NCBI GenBank assembly: GCA_965214095.1
Contig: OZ243938.1
Coordinates: forward strand, 4,704,001-4,768,000
Direction of reading: 5' to 3'
DNA from: Candidatus Poribacteria bacterium
GTDB taxonomy: Bacteria > Poribacteria > WGA-4E > WGA-3G
Length of the DNA stretch: 64,000 bases
The notes under the pieces were generated by a model. The model ran no database searches and was not told the DNA's origin. It saw only the letters and a program-made list of their open reading frames with translations. Of this stretch, positions 26,647 through 30,482 are shown piece by piece; within the stretch, counting starts at the first letter, position 1; every line of letters starts with the position of its first letter. The position numbers and the translations under genes are program-made.

Positions 26647-28566
26647 ATGAAAAACAGAATGCTTTTAATTTTGCTGGCGATAGGTATAATTTCTGTTTCC
26701 ATAATATCCATAATCGTAACAACAAAGAAACCTCCAGATGATTTTATTCCAGAGACACCGCAGCGGGATTTACCAAACGGTGTGAAAGCACGTATTGGGA
26801 AAGGTAGGATATTAGATGTTGCGTACGTTCCAGAAAGCACACAATTTGCTGTTGGCAGTTCTACTGGAATATGGTTCTATGACGCAAATACCTTAGAAGA
26901 AGTTGGTGCTATTCAAGGAAATACTGGTAAAAAACTCAGAATGTCTTTCAGTCCGGATGGAAAAACATTTGCGACAGTAGATGGTAGTAAAACTCTCCGT
27001 TTATGGGACACAGAAACTCTTCAGCACAAAGCTACTTTCATTCGTGATGCTTATCATGCTCCGGCTTTCGTATTTGATTATGTATCGTTTATTGGTGATG
27101 GTCAAACTTTGGCAAGTAGATATCTCGGCAGTGTTGATTTTTGGGATACTACTACATTTGCACATCACTCTGAACTTAGCACTTATACACATGGAAATAT
27201 GGCCTTTTGTTCGGATGGAAGACTACTTGCTTATGAATGGAATGATGGTATCCAAATAGTGAATGTTGCAGAAGACAAGAAAATGAAAAGCTTAAAGGTA
27301 CCAAGAGACCATATTGAGAGTTTTGCATTTAGTCCGGATGGACAAATACTTGCAGGTGGAACTCGTGACAAATTAATCAATTTGTGGAATATTGATACAA
27401 GTGGACTGAAGAAGACAATTAAAGCACATAAACATAGTATAGAATCTATTGCATTTAGTCCAGATGGGAAAACACTTGCCAGTGGAAGTTTTGATCAAAC
27501 TGTCAAATTATGGGATGTTGCTAAAGGAAAACATAAGAAGACATTCAAAGAGCATTCCAATGAAATACATAAAGTACTATTCAGTCCAGATGGAAAAACA
27601 CTTTTAAGTTATTGTCGGGATAGCATCGTTCATCAATGGGATGTTGAAACGGGTAAACATAAGAATACACTCAATGATCATAGAAATTTTGCCACTAGCA
27701 TATCGTTGAGTCCGGATGGTTTGACAATAGCAAGTGGAGGTCTGGACAAAACCGTACGTTTGTGGGATGCAAACACTGGTGAACACAAAATGGTGATTAG
27801 AGGACATAAATCAGTTGTAACTTCCGTATCCTACAGTCCTGATGGATTAACCATAGCGAGTGGTAGTCGTGATAAGAATGTTCGGTTGTGGGATGTTGCA
27901 ACAGGACAACATAAGAAAACACTACGAGGACATATAAGAGAAATAAAAAATGTCCGATTCAGTCCAGATGGAAACCTACTTGCAAGTCAGAGTCATAGAA
28001 GTGTCAGGTTATGGGATGTTAATACAGGTCGTCAAAAATACAATTATGTTATTAAACCCTTTAGTTCCTTTGAATTAGGTTTATCGTTCAGTTCGGATGG
28101 GAAATACCTTGCAAGTACTGGTAATGATGCGAAGATTTTTATGTGGGAAGTTTCCACAGGTAAACTCATTCGGACATTCAAAGGAGCGAATGGGATATTA
28201 GAAGATTTAGCGTTCAGTCCGGATGGAAAAACAATAGTATCTGGAGGAATTAACACACCTATGTATCTATGGAATACAGATACTGGAGAGCGGATCAAAA
28301 CTGTTAAAAGACGAACAGGTTTCATAAGCTCATTAGTATATAGTCCGGATGGGAAATACCTTGTAAATGGTAGTTATCATTCTAATTTACACTTTTGGGA
28401 TACTGACACCGGTATAAAAAAGAAAACACTCAAAGATCATGGACTTGCAATCTTTGATATCTTATTTAGTCGGGATGGATCAACACTTGTAAGTCAGAGT
28501 ATAGATGGAACTGTGTTTGTGTGGGATTTTACTTCTATATTGAAAACAATCAATACTAAGAATTAA
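26647..28566 (+). CDS. Membrane-anchored or secreted WD40-repeat protein (~14 repeats)
   Basis: MKNRMLLILL TM segment; LPNGVKARIGKG; many GH...FSPDG...RLWD repeats. Confidence 0.9.
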   Translation: MKNRMLLILLAIGIISVSIISIIVTTKKPPDDFIPETPQRDLPNGVKARIGKGRILDVAYVPESTQFAVGSSTGIWFYDANTLEEVGAIQGNTGKKLRMSFSPDGKTFATVDGSKTLRLWDTETLQHKATFIRDAYHAPAFVFDYVSFIGDGQTLASRYLGSVDFWDTTTFAHHSELSTYTHGNMAFCSDGRLLAYEWNDGIQIVNVAEDKKMKSLKVPRDHIESFAFSPDGQILAGGTRDKLINLWNIDTSGLKKTIKAHKHSIESIAFSPDGKTLASGSFDQTVKLWDVAKGKHKKTFKEHSNEIHKVLFSPDGKTLLSYCRDSIVHQWDVETGKHKNTLNDHRNFATSISLSPDGLTIASGGLDKTVRLWDANTGEHKMVIRGHKSVVTSVSYSPDGLTIASGSRDKNVRLWDVATGQHKKTLRGHIREIKNVRFSPDGNLLASQSHRSVRLWDVNTGRQKYNYVIKPFSSFELGLSFSSDGKYLASTGNDAKIFMWEVSTGKLIRTFKGANGILEDLAFSPDGKTIVSGGINTPMYLWNTDTGERIKTVKRRTGFISSLVYSPDGKYLVNGSYHSNLHFWDTDTGIKKKTLKDHGLAIFDILFSRDGSTLVSQSIDGTVFVWDFTSILKTINTKN

Positions 28567-28573
28567 ACTATGT

Positions 28574-29002
28574 CTGACGGCTCCCAAACCTAAAGGATTG
28601 GGGTTCTTTTAGGTCATCTTCTCACTCCGAGAGTTTTTTGAAAATGTGGGCATCTTTTATAGGCTTATAGACTACTCACTTGGGTTCAAGCCAAGTTTAC
28701 CAGCACAGCAATTGTGGGGGTGCCCGCCAAGACACGACTAACAGGGACTACTTTATTACCCCAAAATCGTCCCAGATACTTTGTCTATTGTTCTGTTATT
28801 TCGCGGTTGTGGAGGGAACACCGCCACAATCTCATAAAGCGATTCCAGAACTCATCACAAACGACTGGCAAGGATCACAACTTGCAGCGTATACAACCGA
28901 ATGTGGTATCGTTGAGAGTATCAACATCAACTCTGTCCAAGCAAGTGGATTGGATAGGACATTGGCAAGGTTGTCAATGATTGCTTTCCTATCCAGTTGA
29001 CA
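28574..29002 (-). ncRNA. Putative ~430-nt structured non-coding RNA inside the IS200/IS605-like element
   Basis: Upstream promoter TTGATT-N17-TATATT with extended TG; multiple stems and a 5' pseudoknot; no credible ORF. Confidence 0.55.
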
Positions 29003-29007
29003 TATAG

Positions 29008-29036
29008 AATATACCACATTTCTTGAATAAAATCAA
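29008..29036 (-). promoter_or_regulatory. Sigma70 promoter inside the element's left end
   Basis: TTGATT-N17-TATATT with a TGn extension. Confidence 0.6.
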
Positions 29037-29144
29037 GGTTTGTGGCAGTGTTTCATCCCAAATCTAAAGAATTGGACTTTCACACCGCAACGTTAGGTAA
29101 AATGAGAATACTCATTTCTTTGGAGTGGAGATACAACATTTGAC

Positions 29145-30482
29145 ATGAAAAACTTACGATTTACATTTCTAACAGTTCTGTTTCTGTGCATTTTGTCGTT
29201 TCAAAATTCATCCTATGCCCAAAATCACTGGAATCAGTTCAGGGGTCCAAACGGAGACGGAACAACTATTGCAACGAATCTCCCAACAGAATTTAACGAG
29301 ACCAAGAATCTACGATGGAAAACACCTATTCATGATAAAGGGTATTCATCACCTATTGTCTGGGAAAATCAGATTTGGCTTACAACGGCTCGGACGGATG
29401 GTACTGAACTTTTTGCTATATGTGTGGATCTTGAAAGTGGTGACATCATACATGACATTAAGGTATTCGACGTTGAAAACCCTCAACTTGAACATCCCGA
29501 TATAAATAGCCACGCCTCACCTACACCTATTGTGGAAGCGGGACGAGTTTATGTCCACTATGGCACTTACGGCACAGCATGTTTGGATTCGGAAACAGGT
29601 GATATCCTATGGGAACGTAGAAATCTCAACTGCGATCACCGTGTGCGTCCGGCTTCTTCTCCGATTATTGATGGCGAGTCTATTTTTCTCACCTTTGATG
29701 GCGTAGATATGCAATTCATTGCAGCACTTGATAAAAATACAGGGGATACCATTTGGTTAGAACATCGGAATTTTGACTCCGATTTTGGGAAGGTCCTGAA
29801 AGAAAAGGGTGTGAAAGATATTGAAAAAGTAAAAAAAGAGAAAGCAAATGACAACCGAAAATCTTATGCAACACCTACAATTATCACATTTCAAGGAAAG
29901 AAGCAATTGATAAGTCCTGCTGCTGAAGTTACGTTTTCTTATGACCCTAAAACAGGTGATGAACTTTGGCGTGTTCGTCATGTTGGATGGGGTTGGAATG
30001 TTGCATGTCGACCAATTTTCGCAAATGATCTCGTCTATTTTACAACGGGTATAGAAAAACAGCTGTTAGCAGTTGATCCATCAGGTGCAGGAGATGTAAC
30101 CGATACGCACATCGTTTGGAGTCACCGTAAAGGTTCTCCTGAAATACCTTCGCCTCTTATCATTGATAATCTGCTGTATATGATTAATGAAGGAGGCGTT
30201 GTAACGTGTTTAGATGCAAAAAATGGTGAAACGGTATGGAAAGGTCGTGCGAGTGGCAATTATTGGGCATCACCATTATATGCGGATGGAAAAATTTACT
30301 TTTTTAACATGGATGGGAGTGTGCCGGTAATTTCTGTGGGTCGGACATTCAATTTATTGACAACCAACAGGTTTGACACAGAATTTGTAGCATCCGGAGC
30401 TGTCGCTGGAAACAAGTTAATTCTCCGATCACTTACGCATCTTTATTGTTTTGAGAAAATGCATGACACTGATGACCATTGA
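29145..30482 (+). CDS. PQQ-like beta-propeller (BamB-like repeat) secreted protein
   Basis: Motifs WNQFRGPNGDG, YSSPIV, HASPTP, SYATP and YWASP. Confidence 0.88.
   Translation: MKNLRFTFLTVLFLCILSFQNSSYAQNHWNQFRGPNGDGTTIATNLPTEFNETKNLRWKTPIHDKGYSSPIVWENQIWLTTARTDGTELFAICVDLESGDIIHDIKVFDVENPQLEHPDINSHASPTPIVEAGRVYVHYGTYGTACLDSETGDILWERRNLNCDHRVRPASSPIIDGESIFLTFDGVDMQFIAALDKNTGDTIWLEHRNFDSDFGKVLKEKGVKDIEKVKKEKANDNRKSYATPTIITFQGKKQLISPAAEVTFSYDPKTGDELWRVRHVGWGWNVACRPIFANDLVYFTTGIEKQLLAVDPSGAGDVTDTHIVWSHRKGSPEIPSPLIIDNLLYMINEGGVVTCLDAKNGETVWKGRASGNYWASPLYADGKIYFFNMDGSVPVISVGRTFNLLTTNRFDTEFVASGAVAGNKLILRSLTHLYCFEKMHDTDDH

What the first reader, a model, noticed from the sequence alone, without database searches (positions are those of the whole stretch)
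28574..29100. Transposase-free IS200/IS605-ended element that appears to carry its own large structured RNA gene
Seen (minus strand): TTAC at 29100-29097, then AAAG at +17..+20 before the hairpin TCCAATTCTTTAGATTTGGGA. At the far end, GAAC precedes a similar hairpin CCCAATCCTTTAGGTTTGGG, followed by TCAG. Established: IS608 uses guide AAAG with target TTAC at the left end and guide GAAT with TCAA at the right end. Here the right-end pair is GAAC/TCAG, a compensatory change. Seen: the interior has no tnpA/tnpB remnant I can recognise. It has a TTGATT-17-TATATT promoter followed by ~430 nt rich in stems: a 9-bp TGGATAGGA/TCCTATCCA stem (28995-28987/28959-28951) crossing TGTCAA/TTGACA (29002-28997/28977-28972), giving a 5' pseudoknot; ACTTGC/GCAAGT; TTGTGG/CCACAA; GGGAC/GTCCC; CTTGG/CCAAG. 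Inference: a mobile RNA-only cargo element mobilised in trans by a Y1 transposase, which may be an undescribed large ornate RNA class.
Basis: partly seen in the sequence, partly recalled or inferred. Interest (0 to 1): 0.85.

Follow-up and report, generated by a model that had tools for sequence, protein, structure and literature searches.

The report
Protein-less transposon carrying a guide RNA
A 523-base jumping-DNA element with no protein gene carries its own promoter and a long folded RNA whose rear half matches the guide-RNA scaffold of TnpB nucleases; this is a known kind of hitch-hiker, here with an extra, unexplained front domain.

Summary
Window 29096..28574 (minus strand) is a 523-nt IS200/IS605-type element inserted 3' of TTAC. 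It has 3 copies in this genome. Two related species have precise empty sites (TTAC|flank, no duplication) for one sister copy. Its guide and cleavage tetranucleotides covary as in IS608.

It has no conserved ORF and no tnpB remnant at protein level. A conserved extended -10 promoter precedes a ~430-nt RNA. Its fold is strongly supported: 113 pairs, 89% paired against 78% in shuffles, and 71 pairs with compensatory changes.

It is not a new ornate RNA class. The 3' ~209 nt are homologous to the omega-RNA scaffold at the 3' end of a tnpB family (11 of 11 loci), including the guide-adjacent pseudoknot. One member of that family sits in this genome with the same left end and TTAC. The first ~97 nt fold as the same pseudoknotted leader that precedes those tnpB genes. 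About 120 nt in between are unexplained.

Best reading: a standalone omega-RNA transposon (PATE) that borrows TnpA and TnpB in trans. This kind is described in print. The leader pseudoknot and middle domain match no Rfam family and have no known function. The family was seen almost only in Candidatus Poribacteria.

The parts
29097..29100 (-). TTAC. This is the insertion target 5' of the left end. It is not part of the element. It is the expected TAM for TnpB.
   Evidence: It is shared by all 3 own-genome copies. It is retained at the empty sites in G027 and G016.
28574..29096 (-). The whole 523-nt non-autonomous IS200/IS605-type element (a PATE).
   Evidence: Boundaries come from the 3-copy alignment and from the empty-site alignment of the sister copy.
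29077..29080 (-). Left-end DNA guide AAAG, directly 5' of the LE hairpin.
   Evidence: Across homologs, AAAG goes with TTAC (10 copies) and AAAA goes with TTAT (5 copies).
29056..29076 (-). Left-end subterminal hairpin.
29008..29036 (-). Promoter: -35 TTGATT, a 17-nt spacer, TG, then -10 TATATT.
   Evidence: It is conserved in the 13-copy alignment and in the tnpB elements. No transcription start was measured.
28906..29002 (-). 5' leader domain: helices P1-P5 plus pseudoknot PK1. It starts about 7 nt after the -10.
   Evidence: The R1 model match, at own-genome C1:4732906-4733002, equals these window coordinates. 96.1% of cells are paired against 85.3% in shuffles, and 22 of 36 pairs show compensatory change. 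The tnpB leaders have the same topology.
28783..28905 (-). Middle domain: helices P6-P10 and the conserved single strands AUACCACAU and UCGUUUGUGAUGAG. Its origin is unknown.
   Evidence: Helices 7-12 are 86-99% paired and each has compensatory changes. There is no significant profile match in tnpB loci except the last ~55 profile positions in 3 loci.
28574..28782 (-). TnpB-type omega-RNA scaffold. It runs AAAGUAUC, P11, GUUAGUCG, P12, P13-P17, RE hairpin.
   Evidence: R2 matches the 3' end of tnpB in 11 of 11 loci. A sequence profile matches in 11 of 12 loci.
28724..28729 (-). 5' strand of pseudoknot PK2 (UGGCGG, in the loop of hairpin P12).
   Evidence: It pairs with 28580-28575. All 6 pairs are 100% paired in 23 sequences. 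One pair covaries (G-C 18, U-A 5).
28575..28580 (-). 3' strand of PK2 (CCGUCA). These are the nucleotides next to the transposon end and the guide.
   Evidence: The analogue in the ISDra2 omega RNA is described in passages of PMC10097598.
28583..28606 (-). Right-end DNA guide GAAC (28606-28603) and the RE hairpin (28602-28583).
28574..28577 (-). TCAG, the right-end cleavage tetranucleotide and the last bases of the element.
28554..28573 (-). Predicted guide segment. It would be read from the flank if transcription runs through the right end. This is inferred.
   Evidence: Position only. RNA-library contigs of run X1 run on beyond 28574 into unlike sequence (3 contigs), but contigs cannot show a transcript.

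Best explanation
The feature is a non-autonomous IS200/IS605-family element (a PATE) whose only cargo is a promoter and a ~430-nt non-coding RNA. The RNA is a standalone TnpB-type omega (guide) RNA.

**How it most likely works.**
1. A Y1 TnpA encoded elsewhere in the genome binds the two subterminal hairpins. It cuts after TTAC at the left end and after TCAG at the right end, sites set by the internal guide tetranucleotides AAAG and GAAC. It then moves the top strand to a new TTAC.
   - Shown: the ends, the empty sites and the guide/cleavage covariation.
   - Inferred: which TnpA does this.
2. The internal extended -10 promoter fires about 7 nt before helix P1. Transcription runs through the scaffold and out of the right end. 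The RNA therefore ends in a flank-derived guide. This step is inferred.
3. The 3' ~209 nt fold as the omega scaffold. Its guide-adjacent CCGUCA pairs with an upstream loop. A TnpB made by a tnpB-carrying relative loads this RNA. One such relative is at own-genome C1:2247176-2248563, with the same left end and the same TTAC.
   - Shown: homology and fold.
   - Inferred: binding.
4. The complex cuts the TTAC + flank 'donor joint' left after excision. Repair from the sister chromosome restores the element. This follows the mechanism published for TnpB and was not tested here.

The 5' pseudoknotted leader is inherited from the tnpB mRNA leader. It is kept although there is nothing left to translate. 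My best guess is that it protects or organises the 5' end of the RNA (odds about 0.3). The middle ~120 nt are unexplained.
For: **It is mobile.**
- The own genome holds 3 copies in different flanks.
- The site of own copy 2 is empty in G027 and G016. It reads ...TTAC|TACGCAAG..., with exactly 523 nt missing and no target duplication.
- Right-end guide and cleavage bases are complementary in 33 of 36 copies.
- At the left end, AAAG goes with TTAC (10 copies) and AAAA with TTAT (5 copies).
- The same right-end rule holds in 10 of 10 tnpB-element right ends that were found.

**There is no protein inside.**
- tblastn of 15 TnpB-like frames against 23 elements gave a best E-value of 0.13.
- The longest open frames are 59-112 codons. 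They lie on varying strands and at varying places.

**Partner genes are present.**
- The genome has 4 full Y1_Tnp frames plus 1 partial one.

**The RNA fold is real.**
- In 23 non-redundant RNAs, 113 pairs are 89.1% paired against 77.7 +/- 0.5 in shuffles.
- 71 pairs show compensatory change, against at most 31 when the partners are slid. None of 500 shuffles did as well.
- Invariant or frequent G-U pairs fix the strand.

**The 3' part is an omega-RNA scaffold.**
- Model R2, built from this family's columns AAAGUAUC..P13, hits the last ~90 nt of the tnpB ORF in 11 of 11 loci of the tnpB family (19-42 bits).
- Among the own-genome TnpB-like loci searched, the only tnpB gene it hits at E <= 0.05 is that family's (19 bits, E 0.02). 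The one other hit at that level is the distant RNA-only relative beside a tnpA-tnpB IS copy.
- A sequence-only profile hits the tnpB 3' end through the right end in 11 of 12 loci (E 3e-11 to 6e-5).
- PK2 mirrors the ISDra2 pseudoknot between nucleotides -6..-2 and the 5' part of the scaffold (passages of PMC10097598).

**The leader is shared with tnpB.**
- 12 tnpB leaders fold as P1-P4 plus a pseudoknot. They are 93.5% paired against 81.4% in shuffles, and all 5 pseudoknot pairs show compensatory change.

**PATE and TnpB co-occur.**
- Of the 20 genomes whose best R1 hit is at least 70 bits, 14 have this tnpB family at E <= 1e-160.
- Of the other 131 genomes, 21 do. Related genomes are not independent, so this overstates the link.

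**RNA library.**
- In sponge metatranscriptome run X1, contigs cover only 28558-29151.
- Summed depth there is in the thousands, up to about 1.2e5.
- Depth is zero in the bins 28450-28557 and 29179-29250.

**In print.**
- Standalone mobilised omega RNAs that work in trans are described in PMC10691335 (introduction passage).
- PATEs that 'often encode omega RNAs' are described in PMC10055086 (discussion passage).
Against: - **No measured transcript ends.** There is no direct start, end or strand of a transcript. Run X1 is held as contigs only. DNA can sit in an RNA library. Flank depth is zero simply if that organism is absent from the sample. One X1 contig also covers the left end upstream of the predicted start (28933-29101, depth about 2000).
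- **Weak own-genome match.** The R2 match to the own-genome tnpB is weak (19 bits, E 0.02).
- **Thin support for PK2.** PK2 rests on one covarying column and five invariant ones.
- **Imperfect co-occurrence.** Six of the 20 genomes with strong R1 hits lack the cognate tnpB at E <= 1e-160. G020 has 11 R1 hits and no match at 1e-40, though it is a draft of 170 contigs.
- **Unusual nuclease.** The partner TnpB has Gly where the canonical RuvC-II Glu sits (IVIGDL). The passages I read say such clades are predicted active, not shown to be.
- **Unexplained half.** About half of the RNA, the leader and the middle, has no assigned role.
- **Some end mismatches.** Three of 36 copies break the right-end complementarity rule.
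Confidence: 0.67

Rival explanations
1. It is a new, self-standing large structured RNA class whose job has nothing to do with TnpB, riding in IS200/IS605 ends.
For: - No Rfam family matches at the gathering score over the whole window.
- No relevant Rfam family matches at E <= 10 over 28300-29400.
- The 5' ~220 nt are strongly structured and conserved.
- The middle domain has no counterpart in tnpB elements.
- The leader also occurs apart from any omega scaffold: 15 of 30 best-per-genome loci had no R2 match at E <= 0.01, and a sixteenth lies at a contig end.
Against: - The 3' 209 nt are homologous to tnpB 3' ends and omega scaffolds in 11 of 11 loci and 11 of 12 loci.
- The first 97 nt share the fold of the tnpB leaders.
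- The promoter and left end are shared with a tnpB element of the same genome.
Confidence: 0.07
2. It is a deletion relic. A tnpB element lost its ORF and still transposes, but the RNA does nothing. The folds persist only by recent descent, or because they help transposition.
For: - All parts except the middle domain can be derived from a tnpB element.
- Copies within a genome are often near-identical: 36 copies collapse to 23 at 97% identity.
- Some genomes carry many copies without a detectable cognate tnpB (G020).
Against: - Copies 70-83% identical in many species keep 89% of pairs through 283 compensated cells.
- They also keep the promoter hexamers and the spacing from -10 to P1.
- That pattern fits selection on a transcribed RNA rather than drift.
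Confidence: 0.1
3. The conserved pairings act in single-stranded DNA of the transposing top strand, for example to shape the excised circle, and not in RNA.
For: - IS200/IS605 elements move as top-strand single-stranded DNA (established knowledge, recalled).
- The covarying strand is the top strand.
- G-T wobbles are tolerated in DNA hairpins such as the two ends themselves.
Against: - A conserved extended -10 promoter sits at a fixed ~7 nt before P1.
- The leader fold also stands in front of host genes without IS ends.
- The 3' part is homologous to an RNA with a known role.
- The family reaches very high summed depth in an RNA library.
Confidence: 0.06
4. It is a regulator rather than a homing aid. 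Either the outward-reading promoter and leader drive or antisense-silence the neighbouring gene, or the guide steers a non-cutting TnpB to repress transcription, as TldR proteins do.
For: - The promoter plus leader stands upstream of host ORFs in other genomes. One locus is kept in three species (L089, L094, L095).
- In the window, read-through would be antisense to the 3' end of the WD40 gene that stops at 28566.
- The partner TnpB lacks the canonical RuvC-II Glu.
Against: - The Gly-for-Glu change is described as a rearranged site that is probably active (passage of PMC10691335).
- The three own copies sit next to unrelated genes.
- Guides are simply whatever flank the element landed in.
Confidence: 0.1

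Closest known systems
Standalone mobilised omega RNAs, and omega-RNA-bearing PATEs. They are cited in the introduction of PMC10691335 and the discussion of PMC10055086. I read passages only and did not open the original 2021 report.
   Same: - No effector or transposase gene inside.
- IS200/IS605 ends.
- Several copies in a genome that also holds effector-carrying elements.
- A guide-RNA scaffold that abuts the transposon end.
- Presumed use of TnpB and TnpA in trans.
   Different: - This RNA is ~430 nt with its own conserved promoter.
- A ~97-nt pseudoknotted leader and a ~120-nt middle domain lie upstream of the ~209-nt scaffold.
- I could not see the figures or supplements that show the anatomy of published PATEs, so the extra 5' half may or may not be new.
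IS608 / ISDra2 (IS200/IS605 family, Y1 TnpA)
   Same: - Insertion 3' of a TTAC-type tetranucleotide without target duplication.
- Subterminal hairpins.
- Cleavage sites read by internal guide tetranucleotides.

The IS608 pairs AAAG/TTAC and GAAT/TCAA are recalled, and are as given in the finding.
   Different: - No tnpA and no tnpB inside.
- The right-end pair is GAAC/TCAG here, with GAAA/TCAT and GAAG/TCAC in relatives.
ISDra2 TnpB omega RNA (PMC10097598, passages)
   Same: - The scaffold ends at the right end.
- The nucleotides just 5' of the guide pair with a 5'-proximal segment to form a pseudoknot.
- There are several stems.
   Different: - There is no detectable sequence likeness to any Rfam model.
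- The scaffold is about 209 nt against 116 nt.
- The partner TnpB family has Gly at the RuvC-II Glu position.
IStrons and their ORF-less PATE derivatives (bioRxiv 10.1101/2023.11.20.567912, passages)
   Same: - IS605-type ends around a large structured RNA.
- Protein-less derivatives exist.
   Different: - No group I intron match in Rfam even at E <= 10.
- This element has its own promoter and sits antisense between genes, so splicing is not the logic.
HEARO / IscB omega RNA (Rfam RF02033), ROOL and GOLLD
   Same: - Large structured RNAs.
- HEARO is also often found without its ORF (recalled).
   Different: - No match at any threshold tried.
- The IscB guide lies 5' of the scaffold and outside the left end, which does not fit an internal promoter.

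Membership tests
IS200/IS605-family non-autonomous element (PATE) | Imperfect subterminal hairpins at both ends instead of inverted terminal repeats. | tested here: met
   The LE hairpin is at 29076-29056 and the RE hairpin at 28602-28583. They are direct copies, 90% alike.
IS200/IS605-family non-autonomous element (PATE) | Insertion 3' of a fixed tetranucleotide, with no target-site duplication. | tested here: met
   Empty sites in G027 and G016 read TTAC|flank, with exactly 523 nt absent. This was shown for the sister copy. No empty site was found for the window copy.
IS200/IS605-family non-autonomous element (PATE) | Cleavage sites are specified by internal guide tetranucleotides 5' of each hairpin. 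| tested here: met
   At the right end, 33 of 36 copies are complementary at the fourth base. At the left end, AAAG goes with TTAC (10 copies) and AAAA with TTAT (5 copies).
IS200/IS605-family non-autonomous element (PATE) | No transposase gene inside, and a Y1 (HUH) transposase elsewhere in the genome. | tested here: met
   There is no conserved ORF. The genome has 4 full PF01797 frames and 1 partial.
IS200/IS605-family non-autonomous element (PATE) | Strand-specific single-stranded 'peel and paste' movement by TnpA. | not testable with these tools
   This needs an excision or integration assay.
TnpB omega RNA (standalone) | Homology to the RNA encoded at the 3' end of tnpB and the right end. 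| tested here: met
   R2 matches in 11 of 11 tnpB loci. nhmmer matches in 11 of 12. The own-genome tnpB gives 19 bits.
TnpB omega RNA (standalone) | The scaffold ends exactly at the transposon's right end, so that the guide is read from the flank. | tested here: inconclusive
   The position is met: PK2 and the RE hairpin fill the last 30 nt. Read-through is only hinted at by 3 RNA-library contigs that run on past 28574.
TnpB omega RNA (standalone) | A pseudoknot between guide-adjacent nucleotides and an upstream segment. | tested here: met
   UGGCGG pairs with CCGUCA, 100% paired in 23 sequences, with one covarying pair (G-C 18, U-A 5). The own-genome tnpB element shows AUGGCAU opposite AUGUCAU at the same places (read by eye).
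TnpB omega RNA (standalone) | A compatible TnpB with the same TAM in the same genome. | tested here: met
   A 391-aa TnpB (PF07282 and PF01385) lies in an element with the same left end and TTAC.
TnpB omega RNA (standalone) | It is bound and used by TnpB for DNA targeting. | not testable with these tools
This needs biochemistry.
Known Rfam RNA families (ROOL, GOLLD, HEARO, group I intron, IS605-orfB motifs and all others) | A match to the family's covariance model. | tested here: not met
   There were 0 matches at gathering score in the window. Only 4 chance-level hits (E 5-9) to unrelated small-RNA models appeared in 28300-29400. Related tnpB and leader loci gave 0 matches at E <= 1.

The most novel reading that the evidence does not exclude
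The pseudoknotted leader, with or without the middle domain, is an undescribed functional RNA module. It could be a sensor, a processing signal or a TnpB-loading domain that makes guide-RNA output conditional.

It would travel through Candidatus Poribacteria genomes as a portable promoter-leader cassette. It is fused to at least three different 3' modules: this omega scaffold, other PATE interiors, and tnpB ORFs. It has also been taken up in front of host genes.
Probability: 0.22. Interest if true: 0.7.

Novelty: new variant of a known kind. Interest (0 to 1): 0.45.

Why it matters
- **A clean natural example.** This is a guide RNA that has shed its nuclease and its transposase, yet still spreads. 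It reaches at least 17 leader matches in one genome, and leader matches appear in 51 of 151 genomes of the order sample. This bears on how modular and parasitic the OMEGA (TnpB) systems are.
- **A ready test set.** It gives natural TnpB / omega-RNA / TAM triples from a RuvC-II-rearranged TnpB family that, as far as I read, has not been tested.
- **A new motif to explain.** The leader pseudoknot is kept on an RNA with nothing to translate. It is also found before tnpB genes and host genes. It is a well-supported RNA motif absent from Rfam 15. Its function could explain how these elements control guide-RNA supply.

Tried and rejected
**Readings tested and rejected**
- **Decayed tnpB ORF inside the element.** tblastn of 15 TnpB-like frames against 23 elements found nothing below E 0.13.
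- **A conserved small protein.** Two window ORFs were translated, 106 aa on the plus strand and 61 aa on the minus strand. Open frames are not conserved among homologs.
- **Known RNA families.**
They score no better than shuffles.

**Steps that led nowhere or were weak**
- **Empty site for the window copy itself.** Relatives match only the downstream gene, and synteny is broken. An empty site was found only for own copy 2.
- **Own copy 3.** No clean empty site was seen.
- **A loose regex for the scaffold in the whole genome.** It gave 126 mostly chance hits and was dropped.
- **R1 search of the own genome by the genome search.** It found only the 3 close copies and missed the distant relative at C1:80282-79745, which a filter-free search then found.
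- **Run X6.** Nothing could be laid on the stretch. This is no proof of absence.
- **The single motif match outside Candidatus Poribacteria (L170).** It is not a real instance: R1 gives at most 10.7 bits at that place.
- **Literature.** Searches turned up no paper on a tnpB leader pseudoknot or on these elements in Poribacteria. A review, PMC13565253, held nothing relevant in the passages shown. I do not claim it is not in print. Subscription papers, figures and supplements were not visible. In particular, I could not see the extended-data figure that PMC10055086 cites for its PATE-like elements.

**Not used**
- Complex prediction, structure prediction and the large protein searches were not used, because the question was about RNA and DNA.
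Full report
**What is there**

In order these are:
- TTAC;
- 16 nt, then AAAG;
- a 21-nt hairpin;
- TTGATT-17-TATATT with a TG extension;
- about 430 nt of interior;
- GAAC;
- a second hairpin, 90% identical to the first as a direct repeat;
- ...GCCGTCAG.

**It is a mobile element with exact ends**

The own genome is 5.25 Mb in 4 contigs. It holds three full copies at 100, 98 and 93% identity over exactly the same 527 nt. It also holds four partial left-end matches. An alignment with flanks shows that likeness starts right after TTAC and stops at ...GTCAG.

For own copy 2, the orthologous place in two other species of the genus (G027, G016) reads ...TATTCTTAC|TACGCAAGTAATC... There, exactly 523 nt are absent and nothing is duplicated. 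That is the IS200/IS605 signature. I found no empty site for the window copy itself or for copy 3.

Across 36 copies from many genomes, the fourth base of the tetranucleotide in front of the right hairpin is complementary to the last base of the element in 33 (GAAA/TCAT 20, GAAC/TCAG 8, GAAG/TCAC 5). The other 3 are exceptions. At the left end, 10 copies with AAAG have TTAC and 5 copies with AAAA have TTAT. The IS608-like reading of the ends stands. The IS608 rule itself is recalled, not taken from a call.

**No protein, and partners elsewhere**

No open frame is conserved. The longest frames in 23 non-redundant copies are 59-112 codons, on varying strands and at varying positions. tblastn with 15 TnpB-like frames finds nothing better than E 0.13.

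The genome has four full-length Y1 transposase frames plus one partial. They lie in tnpA-tnpB elements whose left hairpin (CCCAAGTCTTTAGACTTGGG) differs at 1 of 20 bases from that of own copies 2 and 3. The genome also has 12 TnpB-like matches.

One of these is a 391-aa TnpB (Pfam PF07282 and PF01385) in an element at C1:2247176-2248563. That element has the same TTAC, an 85%-identical first 91 nt, and the homologous promoter.

**The RNA fold**

BLAST and model searches gave many relatives at 70-83% identity. I located 36 copies and kept 23 below 97% identity.

A hand-drawn structure of 21 helices (113 pairs, two of the helices being pseudoknots) gave these figures:

| Measure | This structure | Control |
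|---|---|---|
| Cells paired | 89.1% | 77.7 +/- 0.5% in shuffles |
| Pairs with a change on both sides | 71 | 43.6 in shuffles; at most 31 with partners slid |
| Shuffles that do as well | 0 of 500 | |

The alignment came from MAFFT and was not fitted to the structure. The structure was derived from these same sequences, so the slid controls flatter it somewhat. Invariant or frequent G-U pairs show that the fold belongs to this strand.

The other two, and with them the pseudoknot as drawn, are no better than chance.

**The 3' half is a TnpB omega-RNA scaffold**

From AAAGUAUC (28782) to the end, the RNA has the same layout as the 3' end of the own-genome tnpB element (by eye):
- AAAGUAUC;
- a hairpin;
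- GUAGUCG;
- a hairpin whose loop pairs with the last nucleotides before the element's end.

Model R2, built from the first ~90 nt of this part, matches the last ~90 nt of the tnpB ORF in 11 of 11 loci of that tnpB family (19-42 bits). Among the own-genome TnpB-like loci, the only tnpB gene it matches at E <= 0.05 is that family's. The one other match at that level is the distant RNA-only relative.

A sequence-only profile of the whole RNA matches the tnpB 3' end through the right end in 11 of 12 loci, at profile positions ~167/223 to ~430. It matches nothing of the first ~165 positions there.

The long-range pairing UGGCGG (28729-28724) with CCGUCA (28580-28575) is 100% kept and has one covarying pair. 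It corresponds to the pseudoknot of the ISDra2 omega RNA, where nucleotides -6..-2 pair with the 5' part of the scaffold (passages of PMC10097598).

**The 5' end is the tnpB leader fold**

The first ~97 nt form P1, which encloses P2 and P3 as well as P4. The internal loop of P2/P3 pairs with the P4 loop, and P5 follows. This domain is 96.1% paired against 85.3% in shuffles, and 22 of 36 pairs show compensatory change.

Twelve leaders of the tnpB family, between the promoter and the ATG, have the same topology. They are 93.5% paired against 81.4%. All five pseudoknot pairs covary, for example UUCUG/CAGAA, UGCCA/UGGCA, GACUA/UAGUC and UACGA/UCGUA.

In the alignment, P1 begins about 7 nt after the -10 hexamer in nearly all 23 sequences. 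The RNA's 5' end should therefore be nearly flush with a stem.

Model R1 finds this domain in 51 of 151 genomes sampled from the order:
- family f1: 43 of 103;
- family f3: 7 of 29;
- family f2: 0 of 11;
- family f4: 0 of 7.

One genome has up to 17 matches, although only 27 candidates per genome were scored.

Of the 30 best-per-genome loci:
- 14 have R2 at a fixed distance of about 122 nt, which is the architecture of this finding;
- 1 lies at a contig end;
- 15 have other contexts.

Those I inspected include:
- a tnpB gene with TTAC ends (L103);
- other protein-less elements with different interiors (L090, L091, L101);
- promoter plus leader, without visible IS ends, in front of host genes. 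One such locus is kept in three species (L089, L094, L095).

**What remains unexplained**

The middle ~120 nt (28905-28783; P6-P10 and two highly conserved single strands) are structured. They have no counterpart I could find. Because the element has no ORF, the leader cannot be there for translation control.

**Expression**

Only contig-level data were available. In one sponge metatranscriptome (X1), contigs 80-100% alike cover 28558-29151. Summed depths are in the thousands, up to about 1.2e5. The bins 28450-28557 and 29179-29250 have depth zero. Three contigs run on past 28574 into unlike sequence, and one covers the left end.

This fits an abundant RNA family. It shows neither strand, nor start, nor end. 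The zero flanks may only mean that this strain is absent from the sample.

**Host and spread**

A strict motif scan of one genome per species gave 58 stretches. Of these, 57 are in assemblies labelled Candidatus Poribacteria. The last is a chance match.

Genomes with strong leader hits more often carry the cognate tnpB: 14 of 20, against 21 of the remaining 131. The link is not strict, and related genomes are not independent.

**Comparison with what is known, and verdict**

Standalone, mobilised omega RNAs that work in trans are already described (PMC10691335). So are PATEs that 'often encode omega RNAs' (PMC10055086). I read passages only.

The partner TnpB family has Gly at the canonical RuvC-II Glu position. 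This resembles the rearranged clades that PMC10691335 predicts to be active.

This is therefore a new variant of a known kind. It is a TnpB-less, TnpA-less guide-RNA transposon with its own promoter. It is unusual in keeping a pseudoknotted leader and an extra middle domain.

Noticed in passing
own genome C1:1527897-1527941 (locus L007:1501-1545): A 45-nt mini element. It consists of TTAC, the left-end arm, a single hairpin, and then directly the right-end tail AGCCGTCAG. It looks as if the whole interior was lost between the two hairpins.
   Followed up: partly
own genome C1:80282-79745 (minus strand; L021:1074-1177 for the leader): A distant RNA-only relative, about 540 nt long, sits about 60 nt behind the right end of a tnpA-tnpB IS copy. 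It has a leader (R1 30 bits, with a covarying pseudoknot UUACAA/UUGUAG) and an omega-like part (R2 19 bits).
   Followed up: partly
own genome C1:781048-781425, 959183-959560, 3279143-3279520, 5082181-5082557: A second protein-less family of about 380 nt with IS200/IS605-type hairpins at both ends. One copy, searched with four other loci, had no Rfam match at E <= 0.1.
   Followed up: partly
own genome C1:2836828 and C1:414658 (minus strand), and C1:3857611 and C1:1616992: Two further protein-less families with related left ends. One is ~520-550 nt and its interior begins GTGCGGGG. The other has the same kind of promoter but a different RNA. No Rfam match at E <= 0.1.
   Followed up: partly
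L025:1440-1500 (G029): A 100%-identical copy of the 3' 260 nt of the element is cut at element position 267/268 by the right end of another IS200/IS605 element. This is a nested insertion.
   Followed up: no
L089, L094, L095 (three species); also L102, L100, L092, L099: The same promoter plus leader pseudoknot stands, without visible IS ends, in the 5' leader of ordinary genes. One case is a TPR-like 384-aa protein conserved in three species. This is possible domestication as an expression cassette.
   Followed up: partly
own genome C1:2247208-2248380 (L005:233-1408, minus strand): The cognate TnpB family has Gly in place of the canonical RuvC-II glutamate (IVIGDL). The exact IVIGDL motif is present in 7 of 9 full-length orthologous frames recovered.
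   Followed up: partly
window 28821-28826: UGGCGG occurs a second time, inside helix P10. It could compete for the 3' CCGUCA strand in this copy. Most homologs have UGUAGG there, so it is probably not conserved.
   Followed up: no
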